From Bacteroidales bacterium (GTDB lineage Bacteria > Bacteroidota > Bacteroidia > Bacteroidales > UBA932): a stretch of 64,000 nt of DNA. Shown in pieces: positions 8,000 through 16,552 of this stretch. The notes below the pieces were generated by a model. It saw nothing but the letters and a program-made list of their open reading frames with translations. It was not told the origin of the DNA and did no database searches. The stretch is from the NCBI GenBank assembly GCA_045642485.1, contig JAZUIV010000002.1:5107-69106 (forward strand). Direction: 5' to 3'. The position numbers were made by a program, and so were the translations under genes. Positions within the stretch are counted from its first letter, which is position 1, and each line of letters begins with the position of its first letter.

Positions 8000-8485
8000 A
8001 TGAGCACCATCGACATAATCATCGCGGTATGTTTTCTACCCTGCCTCTTCTTCGGTCTGAAGCACGGTTTGGTAAAACAGATTACAAGCCTGTGTACCAT
8101 CTATTTCGGAGTGACGCTTTCCCTGCGGTTCTCCTCTCCGGTGATGGAGTGGCTTTCCAGTCACGTGGAAATGTCTCCGCTGGCCGCGAAAATGGTGTCG
8201 TTGATCATCATCTTTTTTGTAATCGCACTTCTGCTGAGCCTTCTGGGACGTCTGGTCGAAAAAGTTTTACAGATAACTCTGCTAGGCTGGGTCAACAAAG
8301 TACTCGGTGTCGCTATGGCGTTCGTCATTTTCACCGTTACCCTCTCCGCTGTCACATTCATTGTGGATCAGGCCAACAACGCCCTGTCTTTCATACCGAA
8401 AGAGCAAATTTCAGAATCCCGGATCTACCCCGAACTCCTTAAACTTTCGAAGTTGATTTTTCCATATTTCAAACAGCTCTTCTAA
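8000..8485 (+). CDS. cvpA: CvpA family membrane protein
   Basis: 161 aa with about 4 TM helices. The N-terminus IDIIIAVCFL..GLKHGLVKQ is typical of CvpA. Confidence 0.75.
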   Translation: MSTIDIIIAVCFLPCLFFGLKHGLVKQITSLCTIYFGVTLSLRFSSPVMEWLSSHVEMSPLAAKMVSLIIIFFVIALLLSLLGRLVEKVLQITLLGWVNKVLGVAMAFVIFTVTLSAVTFIVDQANNALSFIPKEQISESRIYPELLKLSKLIFPYFKQLF

Positions 8486-8817
8486 AGTTTTTCCACATTC
8501 GTGTAAATCCGTCACCGACGCATAAAATTCATACGTTTGGAGCATATCCCTTTACCGGGGTATGCTGAACTTTGCGCTATGAAAAACGACGGAAAAATTT
8601 TACCCCTGACCGAGTTGGATGGACTTGCGGAAGATATGTTGCCTAACGCCCCCGGGGCTCTCAATTTCTTCTTCTGCTTGCTAATAACCGCAACGCTTCT
8701 GCTCTCCATCCTTCCGGTCTTTTTTTTTAACTGATGATGCGGGGGCGATTGAGGGGACGGATGTCTTTTTGAGGGGGAAGACGAGGGGAAGACGCCCCCT
8801 TTTGTTGAAATGAATTT

Positions 8818-10893
8818 ATGAAAACCGATATCAAACAACACGACGAATCGGATTGCGGCGCTGCCTGCATCGCTTCAGTGGCAAGGCATTACGGGAAGAA
8901 CATCCCCATTGCTCTCATACGTGAAGAGTCCGGAACATCGCGGAGCGGCACCACAATAAAGGGTATCATTGATGCGTGCCACGCGACCGGATTCATCAGC
9001 GGGGCATACAAGGCCCCGGAAAAGGAGATTGAGCGGCTGAGGAAAGTGCCCTGTCCGGTAATCCTCCACACAGTGAACAGAAGAGGCGATCTGCACTTCG
9101 TCGTGTTGTATAGTATCGGCAAGAAGAAGGCTATCGTAATGGACCCTGCGCAAGGGACAAGAATCAAAATGGACCTGAGCCGGCTGCAGAAGGAGTGGAC
9201 AGGTTATCTGATTACAATGGCTCCGGACCCGGAAGCCGGGCGCGACTGGGCAGGCAGCGGCGGAAAGACGAACGTGATGCGATTCTTCCGCCTGATAGAC
9301 GTGAAGGAGTACGCACTGATGCTTGCCGGGTCGCTCGCATACATCACAGCAGGCATAAGCATCGCTCTCTTTCTCCAGCTTATAATCGACAAAGTACTGC
9401 CCTCCGGAGACATAGCCGAACTTATGAAAGCAGGCGGATTTATGCTTGCCATAATGGTTTGCACGCTGCTTCTCGGTTACGGGAGGGCACTCTACTCCAT
9501 CAGGCTCAATCTTCACCTTGACAGCCGGCTGGTAATGGGATACCTCTCCCATCTGTTTCGTCTGCCGGTAAGTTTCTTCACAAAAAGAGGAGCCGGAGAA
9601 CTCAACTCCAGAATCGGAGACATATCCAAAATACGAAGTTTTCTCACGGAAGGCATCTCCGGAATTGCGACCAACCTGCTCATTCTGGCCGTATCCTTCC
9701 TGCTGATGTTCACCTACCACTGGCGGCTTGCAGCGATGATGCTGATGTTCATTCCTGTATATCTGATATTATATGCAGTTGCCAACAGAGTGAACAGAAG
9801 GCTGAACCGCGAAATCATAGAGAGTTCCGCGGAATTTGAGGAAAAGACAGTCGAAAGCATAACGGGAGTGAAGGTGCTGAAATATTTCGGTAGCGAGCAG
9901 ACCTACTTCAGGGCCATCCGCAGACAGTATATGGAACTTGTCGGGAAACTGTACAGCGGAGGAAAATATGTGGGAGCCTTCTCAAGCTGGGCTGACGCAA
10001 TCTCCAAACTGATGACCGTCACCCTGCTGACCGCCGGATCCAATTTCATCTTCGCCGGAGAACTCACCGTGGGAGAACTCGTATCATTCTATTCTCTTTC
10101 GGTTTATTTCTCAATGCCGCTCAGCCAATTGGCGGGCATCAGCGAAAGTATGACCGAGGCGAATATCTCCGCCGAGAGAATCGGTGAAATCGAAGACCTT
10201 GACAGCGAAGGTACGGACACTCTGGAATTCACCCCGAACAGAAATGCGGACATTGTACTTGACAACATAGACTTCTCCTATCCGGGCTGCCCCATCCTGC
10301 TGGAAGGCTTCTCGATGAAAATACGGGCAGGCAGGATAACGGCGCTCCAGGGAGAGAGCGGGTGCGGGAAAAGTTCGATAGCAGGGCTTCTGATGAGGGA
10401 TTTCCCTGTCCGCAAAGGGCGAATCTTCATAGGTGATATGCCCATTGACCTGATAGACCTCGGCATCTGGAGAAAGTTCGTTTCGATTGTACCGCAGGAC
10501 GCTCCGCTTATGAATGGGACGATTCTTGAAAACATAACCTGCCTGGACAGTGAGCCAGACCTTGCAAAAGTGTCGCGGATAATCGATGAACTGGGGCTGA
10601 CAGGATTCATTCGTGAACTGCCCTTGGGTCCTCTTACCAAGGTCGGAGCGAGAGGTTCAGTACTCTCCGGAGGGCAGAAGCAACGCATAGCCCTGGCCAG
10701 AGTGTTGTACCTGGACCCTCAGGTCATAATTCTGGACGAGGCGACATCCTCGCTCGACGAGGCTTCCGAAAAAATCATTCTTGATAAACTCAATGATCTT
10801 AGGGACAAGGGGAAAACCATACTGATGATAACCCACAAAAACGACAACGCCCGGATAGCGGATTACAGGATTGAAATGAATGCGCATTCATAA
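8818..10893 (+). CDS. peptidase C39 domain-containing ABC transporter (bacteriocin/peptide-cleaving exporter)
   Basis: 691 aa. The N-terminal C39 signature is QHDESDCGAACIASV (catalytic Cys13), followed by GDLHFVVL (His) and DPAQG. Six TM segments follow. ABC motifs are Walker A GESGCGKSS, signature LSGGQKQR and Walker B IILDEATSSLD. Confidence 0.92.
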   Translation: MKTDIKQHDESDCGAACIASVARHYGKNIPIALIREESGTSRSGTTIKGIIDACHATGFISGAYKAPEKEIERLRKVPCPVILHTVNRRGDLHFVVLYSIGKKKAIVMDPAQGTRIKMDLSRLQKEWTGYLITMAPDPEAGRDWAGSGGKTNVMRFFRLIDVKEYALMLAGSLAYITAGISIALFLQLIIDKVLPSGDIAELMKAGGFMLAIMVCTLLLGYGRALYSIRLNLHLDSRLVMGYLSHLFRLPVSFFTKRGAGELNSRIGDISKIRSFLTEGISGIATNLLILAVSFLLMFTYHWRLAAMMLMFIPVYLILYAVANRVNRRLNREIIESSAEFEEKTVESITGVKVLKYFGSEQTYFRAIRRQYMELVGKLYSGGKYVGAFSSWADAISKLMTVTLLTAGSNFIFAGELTVGELVSFYSLSVYFSMPLSQLAGISESMTEANISAERIGEIEDLDSEGTDTLEFTPNRNADIVLDNIDFSYPGCPILLEGFSMKIRAGRITALQGESGCGKSSIAGLLMRDFPVRKGRIFIGDMPIDLIDLGIWRKFVSIVPQDAPLMNGTILENITCLDSEPDLAKVSRIIDELGLTGFIRELPLGPLTKVGARGSVLSGGQKQRIALARVLYLDPQVIILDEATSSLDEASEKIILDKLNDLRDKGKTILMITHKNDNARIADYRIEMNAHS

Positions 10894-10944
10894 CGGCGAA
10901 TCCCCTCCGCCGTCGTGTGAGGGGAAACGGAAAAAACAAAGAAA

Positions 10945-11145
10945 ATGGAAGAAAAACTAATGAAAGGATTGGGGTTTGGAGAGCTGGATTCTTCCGAACT
11001 CCGTATTCTGGGAGGGGCATCAACCCCCCTGTGGCAAAAAATCGTCGACAAGGTGAGGAATATGATTGACTTCATCAGCGATTACATTCCCAAACTCATT
11101 CAGGGATTCAGGGACGGATTCTCAGCCAGACCTCTCATAAATTAG
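10945..11145 (+). CDS. double-glycine-leader peptide A (bacteriocin-like precursor; predicted 42-aa mature peptide)
   Basis: 66-aa ORF, 51 nt after the ABC stop. The leader is MEEKLMKGLGFGELDSSELRILGG, with an alternative start M6 at 10960. The predicted mature peptide is ASTPLWQKIVDKVRNMIDFISDYIPKLIQGFRDGFSARPLIN, starting at 11017. It is Cys-free and has a GxxxG motif (GFRDG). Confidence 0.7.
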   Translation: MEEKLMKGLGFGELDSSELRILGGASTPLWQKIVDKVRNMIDFISDYIPKLIQGFRDGFSARPLIN

Positions 11146-11157
11146 GAGGGAACTGAC

Positions 11158-11319
11158 ATGACGAAAGAGATGTTAGCAGGTTTCGCTCCTGTCGATATGC
11201 AGGAAGCGGCATTTGTTCTTGGCGGACTTGACAAGAGGGCTCAGGATGCTCTTTACACAATCGGTTATGTAATCGGGGTGGTCGTCCGTCTGTTTGCGAG
11301 AATCATTTCCTGGTTCTAA
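11158..11319 (+). CDS. double-glycine-leader peptide B (bacteriocin-like precursor; predicted 30-aa mature peptide)
   Basis: Hand translation gives MTKEMLAGFAPVDMQEAAFVLGG|LDKRAQDALYTIGYVIGVVVRLFARIISWF*, 53 aa, below the track cutoff. An AGGAGGG sequence lies 7 nt upstream of the ATG. The leader has E(-8), V(-4) and GG(-2,-1). The mature part is hydrophobic with a GxxxG motif (GYVIG). Confidence 0.6.
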   Translation: MTKEMLAGFAPVDMQEAAFVLGGLDKRAQDALYTIGYVIGVVVRLFARIISWF

Positions 11320-11332
11320 TACGCCTAACGAG

Positions 11333-12649
11333 ATGAAACTACGGCTTATTCTCATTATGGCAGGTTTGCTGGCAGTGTTCAGCGCGAGGGCAAAGAACCC
11401 CGTCACCCTGCGTGAGTGCATAGACTATGCAATGGAGCATAATCTCACTATCAGAGAGAACAATCTCACCGTTGAAGAGAAAAAGACGGACCACACAAGA
11501 AAACTGATGTCACTTTTTCCCACAATATCCCTTTATGGCAGCGGGAACCTCAACTGGGGACGCAGCGTGGATATGCAGGAACTGGTCATAATCAAGAATA
11601 AGCTTACCGAATCCGCGAGTCTGTCATTGGGAGCGGAGTGGACTGTATTCGACGGGCTTTCCGGTTTCTTTTCCAAGAAGGCGGCCCGATATGAAATAGA
11701 CGCCGCTCTGCTTGACAATGACAGGCTTAAGAATGAGATTTCCCTGAACATTACGGAAGCATATCTGCAATTGATTCTTTCCGAGGAACTTTCAAAAGTT
11801 GCGTATTACAACTACCGGAAGATGCTTTCCGAACGGGAGAGAATCGCATCCCTGGTGGAAGAGGGGCAGCAGCCCAGGAGCGCACTCTACAACATCGAGG
11901 CCCAATGCGCAGGGGAACTGGCCCGGCTCACCGGATGCAGATGCGACAACAAAAGAAATATAATGAAACTGGCTCAACTTCTCAACCTGCCGTATGACGG
12001 CAGTTTCAAGGCGGAATATCCGCTTGATGGAGAAGAAACGCCGCCACCTCCATCCAGCACAATCGAGGAGATAGAGTTGTATGCTGAACGGATGCCGGAC
12101 ATCCTCTCGATGAAGAGCATTGTGGAAAGCAAACGGAATCTTTTCTCCGCAGCAAAAGGGTCGGCAGCCCCGACAATCACACTATCCGGAGCCTATTCCT
12201 CATACTACAGCAGTACGGCGGAAGGAAAATTCGGGGCGCAGCTGCGCGGCAACGTAAACCCTTCCGTGGGAGTTTCAATCGAAGTCCCGCTGTTCGACGG
12301 CTATTACAGTGCTGCGGCCATAAAGAACGGACGGATGGAATACGAACGGGCCAGACTTCAGGTGGAGGAACGGCGGCAGGATATGGTGGCAACCATCCAG
12401 TCGGCATTCATAGAGGCGGATAATCTTTACCAGATGATGCTTTCTGCGAAAAAAAAGATGGACGCCGCCGAAAAACTGCTGGACGCGTCGCTGGTCAAAT
12501 TCGACCTGGGAGGCATAACGGCAGTGGAGTACACAGTCACCCGCACCGATTTCCTGACAGCCCAGAGTGAATACATCCGAAGCAAATGGCAATATGTCTT
12601 CCAACTCAAAATCATAGACTACTACAAAGGAAACCCGATTGAATTATAG
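11333..12649 (+). CDS. TolC family outer-membrane efflux protein
   Basis: Start at the ATG at 11333 (MKLRLILIMAGLLAVFSARA signal peptide). The rest has TolC-like repeats (LTLRECIDYAMEHNLTI, LNITEAYLQL). The track's 11294 start would overlap peptide B. Confidence 0.85.
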   Translation: MKLRLILIMAGLLAVFSARAKNPVTLRECIDYAMEHNLTIRENNLTVEEKKTDHTRKLMSLFPTISLYGSGNLNWGRSVDMQELVIIKNKLTESASLSLGAEWTVFDGLSGFFSKKAARYEIDAALLDNDRLKNEISLNITEAYLQLILSEELSKVAYYNYRKMLSERERIASLVEEGQQPRSALYNIEAQCAGELARLTGCRCDNKRNIMKLAQLLNLPYDGSFKAEYPLDGEETPPPPSSTIEEIELYAERMPDILSMKSIVESKRNLFSAAKGSAAPTITLSGAYSSYYSSTAEGKFGAQLRGNVNPSVGVSIEVPLFDGYYSAAAIKNGRMEYERARLQVEERRQDMVATIQSAFIEADNLYQMMLSAKKKMDAAEKLLDASLVKFDLGGITAVEYTVTRTDFLTAQSEYIRSKWQYVFQLKIIDYYKGNPIEL

Positions 12650-13828
12650 ATGATACGAAGATTTTTCAAGGACGGACAGGGCAAAAGGGCCCGGAAAGTT
12701 GCAGCGGTGGCTGGTGGCCTCATCATTTTCATAATGATAATTGCAAAAGCCTGCTCCGGAGACAGGATTTCGGTTCAGACAATGACCGTGTTTCCCTCAA
12801 GGCTTGAAGAGGCCATCCCTTCAAGCGGCAAGATTCATCCCGTGAAAGAGGTAAAACTTTCACCCGATGTTTCCGGAGAGATAGTGGAGGTCCGGTGCGG
12901 GGAGGGCGACTATGTCCGGAAGGGGGACACTCTGATACTCATTCGCCGGGACACCTACATCTCGCGCGTGGAGAGAGCCCGGGCTTCGCTCTCAGCACTG
13001 AAAGCCCAGCACTGCAGGAACAAGGCAGAGCTCTCGAAGGCAGAACTCGAATACAGCAGGAACACCCGCCTGTTCGAAGGAGGGGCGATATCCAAGGCCG
13101 TGTACGAAAATTCCAAAGCCGGCTACGAGATAGCGGAGCAGACGGTACTGGCCTCCAAATATACCATTCTCAGCGGAGAGGCGGAGTTGAAAGAGGCTCT
13201 GGAAAGCCTTGCGAAAACCACTATCTGCGCTCCTACGGACGGCATCATATCCAGACTGACGGTAGAGCCGGGGGAGAGAGTTGTCGGGACAAGCCAGATG
13301 GCGGGTACCGAGATGCTTCGGATAGCGGACCCCGACCGGATGGAACTCGTTGTGGACGTGGGAGAAAACGATGTTGTCAGAATATGCGAGGGGGATAGTG
13401 TCTCCATCGAAATCGATGCCCATCCACGCCACATTTTCACAGGAAAGGTCACCCAAATCGCAAATTCCGCAAAAAATCTGGACGTTTCTTTCGAAAAGCT
13501 CACTAACTTTGAAGTCCGGATGGAGATTGTTCCCGATGGGGCAAAACTTCTTCCGGGGATGTCGGCTTCGGCGTCAATAGTCACACAGTCAAAACAGGAA
13601 TGCCTGGCCATTCCTCTGGGATGCGTCTTTACGGAGGGCAGGCAGGAGTTTGTCTGGGTGTTGCGTGACGACAGGTCTGTCGAAAAGAGGGCCATATCGA
13701 CCGGCATCCAGAACCTTAAGGAAATTGAAGTGACCGATGGGCTGGAGGAAGGAGAGGAAATTGTCACCGCCCCTCTCTCGGCCATCAACAAGGACCTGAC
13801 CGACGGACAAAAAGTAAATAGAGACTGA
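12650..13828 (+). CDS. HlyD/efflux periplasmic adaptor (membrane fusion protein)
   Basis: 392 aa. It has an N-terminal TM anchor, a biotinyl/lipoyl-like hairpin (VRKGDTLILI ... ICAPTDGIISRL), a coiled coil and a beta-barrel. Its ATG abuts the TolC TAG. Confidence 0.85.
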   Translation: MIRRFFKDGQGKRARKVAAVAGGLIIFIMIIAKACSGDRISVQTMTVFPSRLEEAIPSSGKIHPVKEVKLSPDVSGEIVEVRCGEGDYVRKGDTLILIRRDTYISRVERARASLSALKAQHCRNKAELSKAELEYSRNTRLFEGGAISKAVYENSKAGYEIAEQTVLASKYTILSGEAELKEALESLAKTTICAPTDGIISRLTVEPGERVVGTSQMAGTEMLRIADPDRMELVVDVGENDVVRICEGDSVSIEIDAHPRHIFTGKVTQIANSAKNLDVSFEKLTNFEVRMEIVPDGAKLLPGMSASASIVTQSKQECLAIPLGCVFTEGRQEFVWVLRDDRSVEKRAISTGIQNLKEIEVTDGLEEGEEIVTAPLSAINKDLTDGQKVNRD

Positions 13829-13829
13829 A

Positions 13830-14516
13830 ATGGCTACAATACTTCTTGTGGAAACGAGCACTGACTGCTGCAGCGCGGCAATCTGCCAAGACAACACCTT
13901 ACTTGCCGGAATGAAGGAAACGGCGCCCAAGGTACACGCATCAAAACTTGTACCTATGATCAACGATATTCTTGATGCCACATCACTGACGATGAAGCAG
14001 ATTGACGCAGTGGCCGTCAGCGGGGGGCCAGGTTCCTACACAGGTCTGCGAGTGGGTGTCTCCACCGCAAAAGGGCTCTGCTTCGGAGCGGGGAAGCCGT
14101 TAATCTCCGTTGGCACTCTGGATATCCTTGCTGCTCAGGGCGCGCAAGGCAGAGAGCATCCCGATTTCATCGTCCCATTCATTGATGCAAGGAGGATGGA
14201 AGTCTATTGCGCAGTCTATTCCGGCGATGGCAACCGCAAGTCGGATGTCGAAGCCGTCATCCTCGATGAAAGCAGTTTCCAGCCCCTTCTGGAGCAGGGC
14301 AAAGTTCTCTTCATCGGAACCGGTGTGGACAAATTCGCCGATATTCGCCATCATCCGAATGCCGTATTCGAGGAGAGTTTTCCCACTGCCCCGTATATGG
14401 CAGAACTCGCGGTGAAGGCATACGCACAAAAAAAGTTCGAAGACGTTGCGTACTTCGAACCTTTCTATCTCAAGGAGTTCAAGCCGGGAATCAGCAAGAA
14501 GTCCCCGCTGCTATAG
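13830..14516 (+). CDS. tsaB: tRNA threonylcarbamoyladenosine biosynthesis protein TsaB
   Basis: 228 aa. Motifs ILLVETSTDCCSAAI and GPGSYTGLRVGVSTAKGL are typical of TsaB/YeaZ. Confidence 0.88.
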   Translation: MATILLVETSTDCCSAAICQDNTLLAGMKETAPKVHASKLVPMINDILDATSLTMKQIDAVAVSGGPGSYTGLRVGVSTAKGLCFGAGKPLISVGTLDILAAQGAQGREHPDFIVPFIDARRMEVYCAVYSGDGNRKSDVEAVILDESSFQPLLEQGKVLFIGTGVDKFADIRHHPNAVFEESFPTAPYMAELAVKAYAQKKFEDVAYFEPFYLKEFKPGISKKSPLL

Positions 14517-15662: not shown

Positions 15663-16067
15663 TTATAACTTGTTGAATTCCTTTGAAATTGATGAAGCAA
15701 TCCCGGCAAACTGCTCCCCGGTCAGACAGAGTTTCTCCTTGCGGAAATCCATATCGCCTTCCGTGTTCAGGGGGACCAGATGGATATGGGTGTGAGGGAC
15801 TTCCATCCCTAGAACAGCCACCCCTACCCTCTTGCAGGGTATGGCAGACTGTATCGCCTTTGCCACCTTGGCGGCGAATTCCCAGAGGCCGGCATAAGTT
15901 CCGGAATCAAGATTGAAGATATAGTCCGCCTCCGTATTCCTGGGGATTACAAGGGTATGCCCCTCGGCAAGAGGGTTGATATCAAGAAATGCGTAAAAAT
16001 CCTCACTCTCAGCCACCTTGTAGGAAGGAATCTCTCCTTTTGATATTTTTGTGAAAACGGTTGCCAT
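15663..16067 (-). CDS. HIT family protein
   Basis: 134 aa with the histidine triad HTHIHLVP. The N-terminus is FTKISKGEIPSYKV. Confidence 0.9.
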   Translation of the reverse strand: MATVFTKISKGEIPSYKVAESEDFYAFLDINPLAEGHTLVIPRNTEADYIFNLDSGTYAGLWEFAAKVAKAIQSAIPCKRVGVAVLGMEVPHTHIHLVPLNTEGDMDFRKEKLCLTGEQFAGIASSISKEFNKL

Positions 16068-16081
16068 AAATCTCGGGCCTC

Positions 16082-16552
16082 CTATATGGATATGTTAAGT
16101 ATTTCGAATTTGATAAGGCCGGAAGGGACTTGCACTTCAACCACATCACCCTTGCGATGACCCATAAGGGCACGTCCGATTGGAGTGGTTGCGGCCAGCT
16201 TGCCCTCCTTGAAATTGGCCTCGCTCTCACCCACAAGAGTGTATTCCATAACGGCATTGTTAGCGAGATTCCTGATTTTCACTTTGTTGAGCATCTGTAT
16301 CTGCTCGGTGTTGATTCTCGATTCATCAACAACTTTTGCGTTGGCTATAACATCCTGAAGTTTGCTGATCTTCAATTCGAGCAAACCCTGAGCCTCCCTC
16401 GCCGCATCGTATTCGGCGTTTTCGGACAAATCCCCCTTGTCACGGGCTTCGGCGATAGCTTTTGAAATCACGGGTCTTTCGGCAATGAGCTTCGCAAGAT
16501 CATCGCGAAGTTTGTCCAACCCCTCCTGTGTCATATAATGTACTTCGGCCAT
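16082..16552 (-). CDS. greA: transcription elongation factor GreA
   Basis: 156 aa. Motifs are Y(M)TQEGLDKL..L, DLSENAEYDAAREAQ, and a C-terminal FKBP-like domain. Confidence 0.93.
   Translation of the reverse strand: MAEVHYMTQEGLDKLRDDLAKLIAERPVISKAIAEARDKGDLSENAEYDAAREAQGLLELKISKLQDVIANAKVVDESRINTEQIQMLNKVKIRNLANNAVMEYTLVGESEANFKEGKLAATTPIGRALMGHRKGDVVEVQVPSGLIKFEILNISI

What the first reader, a model, noticed from the sequence alone, without database searches (positions are those of the whole stretch)
11158..11319. Peptide B: unlisted 53-aa ORF with a canonical GG leader, a hydrophobic GxxxG core and a strong SD-like sequence
This ORF is not in the supplied track because it is under 60 aa. 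Hand translation gives MTKEMLAGFAPVDMQEAAFVLGG|LDKRAQDALYTIGYVIGVVVRLFARIISWF*. The leader has E at -8, hydrophobic residues at -4, -7 and -12, and GG at -2/-1, which fits the canonical spacing better than peptide A does.

The core has a polar, charged head (LDKRAQD) followed by a roughly 20-residue hydrophobic helix containing GYVIG. AGGAGGG lies 7 nt upstream of the ATG.

The track's TolC ORF start (11294) overlaps this peptide. Moving TolC to its signal-peptide ATG (11333) removes the overlap.

The hydrophobic core could instead be a small membrane (immunity-like) protein. However, a cleavable GG leader argues for export.
Basis: seen in the sequence. Interest (0 to 1): 0.7.

Follow-up and report, generated by a model that had tools for sequence, protein, structure and literature searches.

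The report
Conserved exported peptide pair, Bacteroidales
The 53-codon ORF is a real, strongly conserved gene for a small peptide with a cleavable double-glycine export leader. It always sits beside a partner peptide and a dedicated three-part exporter in an uncultured gut Bacteroidales family, so it looks like a two-peptide bacteriocin but is inherited like a housekeeping gene.

Summary

**The gene is real.** Relatives of 46-65 aa occur only in Bacteroidales MAGs (Ca. Cacconaster, which is GTDB family UBA932, and unclassified Bacteroidales from rumen and hindgut).
- Invariant residues are written with 2-4 synonymous codons; core dN/dS is about 0.06.
- E(-8), G(-2) and G(-1) are invariant.
- The core carries a fixed motif, DKRAQDALYTIGYVxG.

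**The context never changes.** In all 18 distinct loci examined the order is cvpA | small TM ORF | C39-ABC exporter (PCAT) – peptide A – peptide B – TolC-like – MFP – tsaB. IleS identity across these loci ranges from 66% to 93%. This indicates vertical, core-genome inheritance, not a mobile island.

**Most likely mechanism.** The adjacent PCAT cleaves B after Gly23 and exports it with A through the tripartite pump. A is an amphipathic helix with a GxxxG motif; B is a hydrophobic helix with a GxxxG motif. Together they form a class IIb-like membrane-active pair. Antibacterial activity is inferred, not shown.

**What does not fit a classical bacteriocin.** Conservation is very high, there is no consistent immunity gene, and the locus is syntenic with housekeeping genes.

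**Extras.** A conserved Shine-Dalgarno sequence precedes B in an SD-blind class, and a covarying terminator-like leader RNA lies upstream of the PCAT.

Verdict: new variant of a known kind; moderate interest.

The parts
8579..8734 (+). Small ORF 'U' (51 aa, acidic N-terminus plus C-terminal transmembrane helix). It is the promoter-proximal gene of the cassette and a candidate accessory or immunity protein, or an upstream ORF coupled to the following terminator.
   Evidence: It was found by aligning the cvpA-PCAT intergenic regions. The family has 45 clusters, all annotated 'hypothetical' and all from Bacteroidales. It is cleanly deleted in L001/L010, L014 and L016 and absent in L021, so it is dispensable.
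8741..8806 (+). Terminator-like structured leader RNA 11 nt upstream of the PCAT start codon. The outer stem is GGGGGCG/CGCCCCC, the inner hairpin is GTCTT.../...AAGAC, and a T-run follows.
   Evidence: Per-sequence MFE folds recover the outer stem plus a T-rich tail in 15 of 16 loci. The stem occurs in five different but complementary versions, and its span is 59-67 nt. There is no Rfam match.
8818..10893 (+). PCAT: a peptidase-C39 / ABC-membrane / ABC-ATPase exporter that would cleave and export A and B.
   Evidence: Pfam gives Peptidase_C39 at 2.6e-33, plus ABC_membrane and ABC_tran. NCBIfam gives bacteriocin_ABC at 2e-110. The best PDB matches are PCAT1 (4ry2, E 6.8e-96) and ComA (8hf4). 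The QHDxxDC[AG]AA motif containing the catalytic Cys is kept in 16/16 loci.
10945..11145 (+). Peptide A precursor (66 aa). The leader ends in SSELxxxGG and the core is about 42 aa, amphipathic and helical, with invariant K..RN.ID...DY.P....G..DG.
   Evidence: Translation is and the alignments. The family has 152 clusters, all 'hypothetical'. AF2 predicts helices at 16-23 and 29-60 with pLDDT 62. The hydrophobic moment is 0.55-0.72.
11144..11150 (+). Shine-Dalgarno-like AGGAGGG. It overlaps the last base of A's stop codon and lies 7 nt before B's ATG.
   Evidence: An SD core of at least 5 nt lies 4-9 nt before B's start in 17 of 18 distinct loci, and never before A. Only 5 of 57 long ORFs in the window have such a core.
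11158..11226 (+). Peptide B leader (23 aa, MTKEMLAGFAPVDMQEAAFVLGG), of double-glycine type.
   Evidence: E-8, G-2 and G-1 are invariant. Position -4 is V or I, position -7 is A or C, and position -12 is hydrophobic in the Cacconaster-like and rumen-clade sequences. This matches the published recognition motif L(-12)x3E(-8)L(-7)...GG (PMC6363468).
11227..11319 (+). Peptide B core (30 aa, LDKRAQDALYTIGYVIGVVVRLFARIISWF) plus the stop codon. It has a polar head and a hydrophobic helix with GxxxG.
   Evidence: D2, A8, Y10, I12, G13, Y14 and G17 are invariant in 16 loci and are written with 2-4 synonymous codons. dN/dS is about 0.06. AF2 predicts a single helix with pLDDT above 90 in the core. Net charge is +2 and pI is 9.7.
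11333..12649 (+). TolC-like outer-membrane factor (OEP), starting at the signal-peptide ATG and not at TTG 11294.
   Evidence: Pfam gives OEP at 1.3e-39. Orthologues start after B's stop.
12650..13828 (+). Periplasmic adaptor (membrane-fusion protein) of the tripartite exporter.
   Evidence: NCBIfam gives RND_mfp at 3e-59 with MacA-like similarity, and Pfam gives HlyD_D23 and HlyD_3.

Best explanation
Peptide B is the second of two ribosomal, unmodified double-glycine-leader peptides encoded inside a dedicated type-I-like export operon (PCAT, A, B, TolC-like OMF, MFP).

**Proposed steps:**
1. A and B are translated from one mRNA. B is translated from a conserved SD-led start 12 nt after A's stop.
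2. B's 23-aa leader forms a short helix. V-4, A-7 and V-12 dock in the hydrophobic groove of the PCAT's C39 domain, and the catalytic Cys13 cuts after Gly23.
3. The 30-aa cationic helical core (mono-isotopic mass 3481.96 Da) passes through the ABC-MFP-OMF conduit to the outside, together with the roughly 42-aa amphipathic core of A.
4. Outside, A and B pair helix-to-helix through their GxxxG motifs. They act on a membrane, or a membrane protein, of a target cell in the manner of class IIb two-peptide bacteriocins or class II microcins.

**What is shown:** gene reality, leader motif, obligate A-B-exporter linkage, intact protease motif, and helical/GxxxG character.

**What is inferred:** cleavage, export, pairing and antibacterial activity.
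For: **The ORF is real and under selection.**
- The ORF and its translation are verified.
- There are 18 relatives among 5.8e9 proteins, and 18 representatives among 1.84e9 by exhaustive HMM search.
- GG-x-DKRAQDALYTIGYV-x-G is invariant in alignment A1.
- Invariant residues use synonymous codons.
- Core dN/dS is about 0.06 and leader dN/dS about 0.14, with pS about 0.7.

**The leader fits a PCAT substrate.**
- It fits the experimentally defined PCAT recognition motif (PMC6363468).
- Only A and B match a GG-leader pattern in the whole window, against 0.27 expected.

**The exporter is present and intact.**
- The PCAT has a conserved catalytic-Cys motif in 16/16 loci.
- It shows full-length similarity to PCAT1 and ComA.
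- OEP and MFP genes lie directly downstream.

**A and B are always together.** They are adjacent (4-18 nt apart) in all 18 distinct loci.

**The peptides look like a membrane-active pair.**
- GxxxG is invariant in both.
- Both cores are cationic: net charge +2, pI 9.5-9.7.
- Both are predicted helical.
- There are no modification enzymes nearby, and neither window core contains Cys.
Against: - There is no sequence homology to any described bacteriocin, microcin or solved two-peptide bacteriocin.
- No immunity gene is consistently present. ORF U is the only candidate, and it is deleted in 4 of 16 lineages that keep A and B.
- The cassette sits at one fixed site between cvpA and tsaB in every locus, while flanking housekeeping proteins diverge to 66-71% (IleS). 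This pattern is vertical and core-genome, unlike typical strain-variable, mobile bacteriocin loci.
- The core is more conserved than the leader, the opposite of arms-race diversification.
- The carriers include reduced genomes of 1.4-1.9 Mb (PMC8957277), which hints at an indispensable function.
- No activity, cleavage or expression data exist.
Confidence: 0.5

Rival explanations
1. The same processing and export occur, but the pair is not a weapon. A and B would be a lineage-wide, conserved secreted or envelope-inserted peptide pair with a physiological role, such as a cell-cell signal, an outer-membrane or envelope factor, or a host- or community-directed effector. That role would be maintained by purifying selection in family UBA932.
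For: - Synteny is strictly vertical across loci whose IleS is only 66-71% identical to the window's.
- A 16-residue stretch of B is identical between the window and loci with 67% IleS identity.
- Core dN/dS is about 0.06.
- The cassette is retained in 1.4-1.9 Mb genomes.
- No obligatory immunity gene is present.
- The essential gene tsaB follows the MFP gene by 1 nt, which suggests routine transcription through the operon.
- Control elements are dedicated and conserved: the leader RNA and the SD.
Against: - No sensor kinase or receptor gene lies nearby.
- The peptides have the physico-chemical profile of membrane-active bacteriocins: cationic, amphipathic or hydrophobic, with GxxxG.
- Bacteroidetocins also lack immunity genes (PMC6671954), so the absence of one does not exclude a toxin.
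Confidence: 0.3
2. Peptide A is the exported toxin and B stays in the producer's inner membrane. B would be a small single-pass protein acting as an immunity factor or exporter accessory subunit, possibly inserted N-out by the PCAT.
For: - B has an 18-20-residue hydrophobic segment, with a KD 19-residue window up to 2.0.
- In the rumen clade a Lys-rich C-terminal tail (KKDKPTV) fits a C-in membrane anchor.
- Microcin immunity proteins are small TM proteins encoded next to the toxin (PMC12219008).
Against: - The GG motif and E-8 are invariant and under purifying selection, which an uncleaved membrane protein would not need.
- The window clade lacks the cationic tail.
- The more divergent family members (L018, L021) have amphipathic rather than TM-like C-terminal halves.
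- No known immunity protein carries a double-glycine leader (background knowledge).
Confidence: 0.1
3. The ORF is a chance open frame, or the region is really the 5' end of the TolC gene starting at TTG 11294.
For: The only support is that a mechanical ORF call starts TolC at 11294.
Against: - B shows protein-level conservation with synonymous substitutions in 16 loci.
- Orthologous OMF genes start after B. In the rumen clade they are separated from B by a GC hairpin.
Confidence: 0.02

Closest known systems
Class IIb two-peptide bacteriocins of Gram-positive bacteria (lactococcin G, plantaricin EF/JK)
   Same: - Two adjacent genes in one operon.
- Both products carry double-glycine leaders.
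- Both cores are unmodified, 30-42 aa, cationic and helical.
- Both cores have GxxxG motifs.
- A dedicated C39-ABC exporter is present.
   Different: - No detectable sequence homology.
- The producer is Gram-negative, with its own OMF and MFP genes.
- No consistent immunity gene.
- Core-genome vertical inheritance with very strong conservation.
- Synergy and activity are untested.
Class II microcins (e.g. microcin V with CvaA/CvaB/TolC)
   Same: - Gram-negative producer.
- GG-leader peptide.
- PCAT plus MFP plus TolC-type export.
- Small unmodified peptide.
   Different: - Microcins described so far are single peptides with an adjacent TM immunity gene, usually on plasmids or islands (PMC12219008).
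- Here there are two peptides.
- The OMF is encoded in the operon.
- The locus is chromosomal and syntenic across divergent members of the lineage.
Bacteroidetocins (class IIf, Bacteroidales)
   Same: - Bacteroidales origin.
- GG leader, 15 aa in the rumen clade of B.
- PCAT-dependent.
- No immunity gene.
   Different: - Bacteroidetocins are single 42-aa peptides with four Cys and a thiol-oxidoreductase gene, carried on mobile elements (PMC6671954).
- The window's A and B have no Cys in either core.
- They come as a pair.
- They have their own OMF and MFP genes.
- They are vertically inherited.
ComC/BlpC-type GG-leader pheromones exported by ComA/BlpA
   Same: - GG leader cleaved by a PCAT. 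ComA is among the best solved relatives of this PCAT.
- Conserved within a lineage and chromosomal.
   Different: - No two-component sensor lies nearby.
- The cores are longer and hydrophobic or amphipathic, unlike short soluble pheromones.

Membership tests
Double-glycine-leader PCAT substrates | Gly-Gly (or GA/GS) at positions -2/-1 of a 15-30-aa N-terminal leader | tested here: met
   GG is invariant in 16 loci and written with 3 codons at each position. The leader is 23 aa in the window clade and 15 aa in the rumen clade.
Double-glycine-leader PCAT substrates | Recognition motif: hydrophobic -12, Glu -8, hydrophobic -7 and hydrophobic -4 (PMC6363468) | tested here: met
   The window has V-12, E-8, A-7 and V-4. 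E-8 is invariant, position -4 is V or I in 16/16 loci, and position -7 is A or C in 16/16 loci.
Double-glycine-leader PCAT substrates | Cognate C39-peptidase ABC transporter with a catalytic Cys, encoded nearby | tested here: met
   The PCAT ends 265 nt upstream of B's start. Peptidase_C39 scores 2.6e-33. The QHDxxDC motif is kept in 16/16 loci. PCAT1 is the best solved match at E 7e-96.
Double-glycine-leader PCAT substrates | Match to a curated leader model (e.g. TIGR01847 bacteriocin_sig) or a Pfam bacteriocin family | tested here: not met
   There are no Pfam or NCBIfam hits, even at E up to 1-10.
Double-glycine-leader PCAT substrates | Demonstrated cleavage after GG and export | not testable with these tools
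   This needs biochemistry or mass spectrometry. The predicted core mass is 3481.96 Da.
Class IIb two-peptide bacteriocins | Two adjacent structural genes, each with a GG leader, always co-occurring | tested here: met
   A and B are 4-18 nt apart in all 18 distinct loci.
Class IIb two-peptide bacteriocins | GxxxG helix-helix motifs in both peptides; cationic helical cores of 25-60 aa | tested here: met
   B has invariant G36xxxG40 and A has invariant G54xxDG58. Net charge is +2 for each, pI is 9.5-9.7, and AF2 predicts helices.
Class IIb two-peptide bacteriocins | Dedicated immunity gene in the operon | tested here: inconclusive
   The only candidate is ORF U (8579..8734). It is conserved but deleted in 4 of 16 lineages that retain A and B.
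Class IIb two-peptide bacteriocins | Sequence homology to known members | tested here: not met
   Profile searches of the A and B families against all PDB chains, which should include the solved two-peptide bacteriocins, gave only chance hits. There were no family-model hits.
Class IIb two-peptide bacteriocins | Synergistic antibacterial activity of the two peptides | not testable with these tools
   This needs synthetic peptides and indicator strains.
Bacteroidetocins | Four-Cys mature peptide, thiol-oxidoreductase gene and a mobile-element location (PMC6671954) | tested here: not met
   Neither window core contains Cys. The locus is syntenic with housekeeping genes in all relatives.

The most novel reading that the evidence does not exclude
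The cassette would not be a classical bacteriocin locus. It would be an ancient, family-wide (UBA932 / RC9-type rumen and hindgut Bacteroidales) housekeeping-like module that secretes, or inserts into the envelope, a co-evolving peptide pair. The invariant DKRAQDALYTIGYVxG head of B would contact a conserved partner. Output would be gated in two ways:
- by a previously undescribed terminator-type leader RNA upstream of the PCAT;
- by a conserved Shine-Dalgarno sequence before B, in a class whose standard ribosomes ignore SD. That would make B a candidate target of specialised (bS21-free) ribosomes or of SD-dependent translational coupling.
Probability: 0.25. Interest if true: 0.75.

Novelty: new variant of a known kind. 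Interest (0 to 1): 0.5.

Why it matters
- **Unannotated gene families.** UBA932 (including Ca. Cacconaster) and related rumen and hindgut Bacteroidales are so far known only from MAGs. This analysis identifies three unannotated small-protein families (U, A and B) and a complete dedicated exporter conserved in every related locus examined.
- **If A+B is antibacterial.** It would be the first two-peptide (class IIb-like) system described in a Gram-negative. It would also be a lineage-wide weapon of an abundant livestock-gut clade.
- **If A+B is not antibacterial.** It would be a conserved secreted-peptide system of unknown physiology in streamlined genomes.
- **A test case for translation.** The conserved SD before B is a natural test of SD use in SD-blind Bacteroidia.
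- **A candidate regulatory RNA.** The leader RNA is a candidate new cis-regulatory element.
- **An annotation lesson.** Gene callers that miss ORFs of about 50 aa, or extend the TolC gene over them, hide this family.

Tried and rejected
- **Family scans.** Pfam and NCBIfam scans of A, B, U and their cores gave nothing beyond noise.
- **PDB profile searches.** The searches for A and B gave only chance hits: a PAC1-receptor TM helix, a TetR protein and syntaxin. A resemblance to plantaricin J/K and lactococcin G that I recalled from memory (GFxDG and IGYxIG-type motifs) could therefore not be confirmed as homology. I count it only as a shared GxxxG character.
- **Rfam.** A search of 8300-11500 gave no credible family.
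- **Leader RNA alignment.** RNAalifold on MAFFT alignments failed because MAFFT did not put the covarying stems in register. I relied on per-sequence folds instead.
- **Exact-sequence look-up.** The window's B peptide was not on record.
- **AF2 job.** I repeated it with database sequences as A5.
- **Fold searches.** I did not run them, because both models are single helices (A at pLDDT 62) and matches would be meaningless.
- **Consensus scan.** The sigma-70 promoter and short-loop terminator scan was uninformative here: no site was reported in the cvpA-PCAT leader. Bacteroidales promoters are also not covered by that consensus.
- **Readthrough of A's TAG into B.** I considered this because A and B share a frame in the window, and rejected it. 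The gap is 10, 11 or 4 nt in other loci, so they are not always in frame.

Full report
**1.

The ORF at 11158..11319 (+) exists with an ATG start.
- Counting back from the putative cleavage site, the leader has G-1, G-2, V-4, A-7, E-8, V-12 and F-15.
- AGGAGGG lies at 11144-11150, 7 nt before the ATG.
- The mechanical TolC ORF begins at TTG 11294 and overlaps B. An ATG at 11333 opens a typical signal peptide.
- A GG-leader pattern ([LIVMF]x3[ED][LIVMFA]x2[LIVMF]xG[GAS] in the first 40 residues of ATG-started ORFs of 30-110 aa) matches exactly two ORFs in all six frames of the 64-kb window. These are peptide A (10945..11145) and peptide B. Block-shuffled sequence gives 0.27 on average.

**2. 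The surrounding genes**

Reading left to right on the + strand:
- cvpA, 8000-8485.
- A C39-peptidase ABC exporter (PCAT), 8818-10893.
- Peptide A, 66 aa.
- Peptide B, 53 aa.
- A TolC-like outer-membrane factor, 11333-12649.
- A periplasmic adaptor (MFP), 12650-13828.
- tsaB, 13830-14516.

The PCAT aligns over its full length with the solved PCAT1 (4ry2, E 6.8e-96) and with ComA. Its N-terminal QHDxxDC[AG]AA motif, which holds the catalytic cysteine, is intact in the window and in 15 orthologues.

**3. B is a real gene under strong constraint**

*Relatives.*
- A word-seeded search of 5.8 billion proteins found 18 relatives of 46-57 aa.
- An exhaustive profile search of 1.84 billion cluster representatives found only 18 hits.
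- A scan of one genome per GTDB species found 13 species. All are Bacteroidales MAGs from horse faeces (Candidatus Cacconaster) or from ruminant and deer guts.
- Cacconaster is GTDB genus Bact-11 in family UBA932, with genomes of 1.4-1.9 Mb (PMC8957277).

*Conservation.*
- In alignment A1, GG-x-DKRAQDALYTIGYV-x-G is invariant.
- Across 16 loci, including the most divergent, E-8, G-2, G-1, D+2, A+8, Y+10, I+12, G+13, Y+14 and G+17 are invariant.
- Most of these residues are written with three or four synonymous codons, which is the signature of selection on the protein.
- Nei-Gojobori counts over 120 pairs give pS of about 0.74 (near saturation).
- pN/pS is 0.23 and dN/dS about 0.06 for core residues 1-24. 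dN/dS is about 0.14 for the last ten leader residues.

So the ORF is translated, and its core is more constrained than its leader.

**4. The context is invariant and vertically inherited**

tblastn of the window's proteins against all fetched loci shows the same order everywhere:

lspA - dksA-like - ileS | cvpA - PCAT - A - B - OMF - MFP - tsaB | thioredoxin-like - HIT - greA

Identity to the window falls in parallel for the cassette and the housekeeping flanks.

| Protein | Identity to window across loci |
|---|---|
| IleS | 93% down to 66% |
| GreA | 96% down to 71% |
| PCAT | 87% down to 41% |
| Peptide A | 92% down to 35% |
| Peptide B | 87% down to 43% |

- The 16-residue stretch DKRAQDALYTIGYVIG of B is identical between the window and L001, whose IleS is only 67% identical.
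- A B-like ORF follows an A-like ORF by 4-18 nt in all 18 distinct loci.
- This pattern is that of an old, core-genome module. It does not look like a strain-variable or mobile bacteriocin island, in contrast to the bacteroidetocins, which lie on mobile elements (PMC6671954).

**5. Anatomy of the peptides**

*Leader of B.*
- It matches the experimentally defined PCAT recognition code. That code is Leu-12-x3-Glu-8-Leu-7 plus GG/GA/GS, with residues -4, -7 and -12 packing into a hydrophobic groove of the C39 domain (PMC6363468).
- The leader is 23 aa in the Cacconaster-like clade and 15 aa in the rumen clade. In both clades the SD-like element sits about 4-9 nt before the first ATG, which supports those starts.

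*Core of B.*
- It is 30 aa, net charge +2, pI 9.7.
- It has a polar head, LDKRAQDALY, and a hydrophobic helix carrying the invariant GYV-x-G.
- AF2 with the family alignment gives one helix over residues 14-52, with pLDDT above 90 in the core.

*Peptide A.*
- It has an invariant SSEL...GG leader.
- Its core is about 42 aa, cationic and strongly amphipathic (hydrophobic moment 0.55-0.72).
- Invariant residues are K..RN.ID...DY.P....G..DG, so A also has a GxxxG motif.
- AF2 predicts helices at 16-23 and 29-60 with pLDDT 62.

*Both.*
- Neither window core contains Cys, and no modification enzymes are nearby.
- Neither peptide matches any Pfam, NCBIfam or PDB sequence.
- All database relatives are annotated 'hypothetical'.

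**6. Mechanism**

The best-supported model has three steps.
1. A and B are made from one transcript.
2. The adjacent PCAT recognises and cleaves their GG leaders.
3. The cores leave the cell through the PCAT-MFP-OMF conduit.

These steps follow from established knowledge of PCAT and type-I systems, and from the motif and linkage evidence above. None of them is shown here.

What the exported pair does is less certain.
- *For a class IIb-like membrane-active duo:* two adjacent GG-leader genes, cationic helical cores, one amphipathic and one hydrophobic, and GxxxG in both.
- *Against a classical bacteriocin:* vertical core-genome inheritance, extreme conservation of the core, retention in reduced genomes, and no obligatory immunity gene.

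My estimates are:

| Reading | Probability |
|---|---|
| Full 'exported two-peptide bacteriocin-like' model | about 0.5 |
| Same export, but a non-antagonistic conserved function | about 0.3 |
| B is a membrane-resident immunity or accessory protein | about 0.1 |
| Chance ORF | essentially zero |

That B is a PCAT-processed exported peptide, whatever its function, I put at about 0.8. The immunity reading is disfavoured because the GG and E-8 positions are under selection.

**7. Additional elements found while working outward**

*(a) A third conserved small gene, ORF U.*
- It lies at 8579..8734 and encodes 51 aa, with an acidic N-terminus and a C-terminal TM helix.
- It sits between cvpA and the PCAT. 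Its family has 45 clusters, all from Bacteroidales.
- It has been cleanly deleted in four of 16 lineages that keep A and B. If it is an immunity factor, it is not indispensable.

*(b) A terminator-like leader RNA.*
- It lies immediately after ORF U and 11 nt before the PCAT start, at 8741-8806.
- It is a structure spanning 59-67 nt, followed by a T-run.
- Its outer stem occurs in five different but complementary versions across clades: GGGGGCG/CGCCCCC, GAGGGAGC/GCTCCCTC, GGGGCTGC/GCAGCCCC, GGAAGGGGCC/GGTCCCTTCC and AGAGAGTGGCG/TGCCGCTCTCT.
- It encloses a conserved inner hairpin and purine-rich internal loops.
- It has no Rfam counterpart.
- Because it sits between the putative promoter region and the PCAT, it is a candidate attenuator for the whole operon.
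- The stop codon of ORF U lies 6 nt before the stem, so translation of U could modulate it (inference).

*(c) The SD-like element before B.*
- It is conserved in 17 of 18 loci, while A has the A-rich, SD-less upstream region typical of Bacteroidia.
- Only 5 of 57 long ORFs in the window have an SD core.
- Bacteroidia ribosomes are reported to be blind to SD unless they lack bS21 (PMC9976891, PMC13000453).
- The element may therefore mediate coupling to A or selective translation.

*(d) A hairpin after B in the rumen clade.*
- A GC-rich hairpin (GGGTCTCTC...GAGAGACCC; -18 to -27 kcal/mol for the region folded) with a short T-containing tail follows B there.
- The Cacconaster-like clade lacks it.
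- It is a plausible partial terminator that would raise peptide mRNA relative to pump mRNA, as in many bacteriocin operons.

**8. Comparison with what is known, and novelty**

GG-leader class II peptides with PCATs are now known to be very numerous in Gram-negatives, including Bacteroidota (PMC12219008; PMC12648112). The kind is therefore known.

What is different here:
- a two-peptide arrangement in a Gram-negative;
- its own OMF and MFP genes in the operon;
- fixation in the core genome of an uncultured gut lineage;
- three unannotated small-protein families;
- two unusual conserved control elements.

It is not a bacteroidetocin: it has no Cys, no oxidoreductase gene, and it is not mobile. 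It also cannot be filed as a homologue of any class IIb family. I rate it a new variant of a known kind, with interest 0.5.

Noticed in passing
window 8579..8734 (+): A third conserved small ORF ('U') encodes 51 aa (MKNDGKILPLTELDGLAEDMLPNAPGALNFFFCLLITATLLLSILPVFFFN) with a C-terminal TM helix. It lies between cvpA and the PCAT. Its family has 45 clusters, all 'hypothetical'. It is cleanly deleted in 4 of 16 related loci that keep A and B.
   Followed up: partly
window 8741..8806 (+); equivalent positions in L001-L021: A terminator-like structured RNA lies just upstream of the PCAT start. The outer stem covaries in five complementary versions and spans 59-67 nt. It has an inner GTCTT/AAGAC hairpin, purine-rich loops and a T-run. 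There is no Rfam family for it, so it is a candidate attenuator or cis-regulatory RNA. MAFFT-based covariation tests failed on alignment register.
   Followed up: partly
window 11144..11150 (+) and the same position in 17 of 18 related loci: A strong Shine-Dalgarno-like sequence is conserved before peptide B but not before A. This occurs in a class (Bacteroidia) whose ribosomes are reported to ignore SD unless they lack bS21. Only 5 of 57 long ORFs in the window have an SD core (PMC9976891).
   Followed up: partly
L001 8157..8203, L011, L017, L008 (between B and the OMF gene): The rumen clade and L008 carry a GC-rich hairpin (GGGTCTCTC...GAGAGACCC in the rumen loci; -18 to -27 kcal/mol for the region folded) with a short T-containing tail right after B. 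The window clade has only a 13-nt spacer. This is a probable partial terminator that would set the peptide-to-pump mRNA ratio.
   Followed up: partly
window 8000..8485 (+): cvpA ('colicin V production protein') lies immediately upstream of the cassette in every locus where that flank was captured. In E. coli, CvpA is needed for production of the GG-leader microcin V (background knowledge). The adjacency may be coincidental or functional.
   Followed up: no
window 13830..14516 (+): The t6A gene tsaB starts 1 nt after the MFP stop and follows it in all loci. Either it is co-transcribed with the export operon, or it has a promoter inside the MFP gene.
   Followed up: no
window 10945..11145 (+), peptide A leader: A's leader fits the canonical -4/-7/-8/-12 spacing only if cleavage in the window clade is after GG-A (Gly-Ala type). 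The residue after GG is mostly A, G or S across the family. In the rumen clade neither register fits perfectly.
   Followed up: partly
window 10902..10924 (+): A hairpin, CCCCTC...GAGGGG (about -17 kcal/mol for the region folded), lies between the PCAT stop and peptide A. Its conservation was not examined.
   Followed up: no
window 16067..16090 (-): The HIT-family gene (15663..16067, - strand) also has AGGAGG 10 nt before its ATG, inside the end of greA. It is one of the few other SD-led starts in the window.
   Followed up: no
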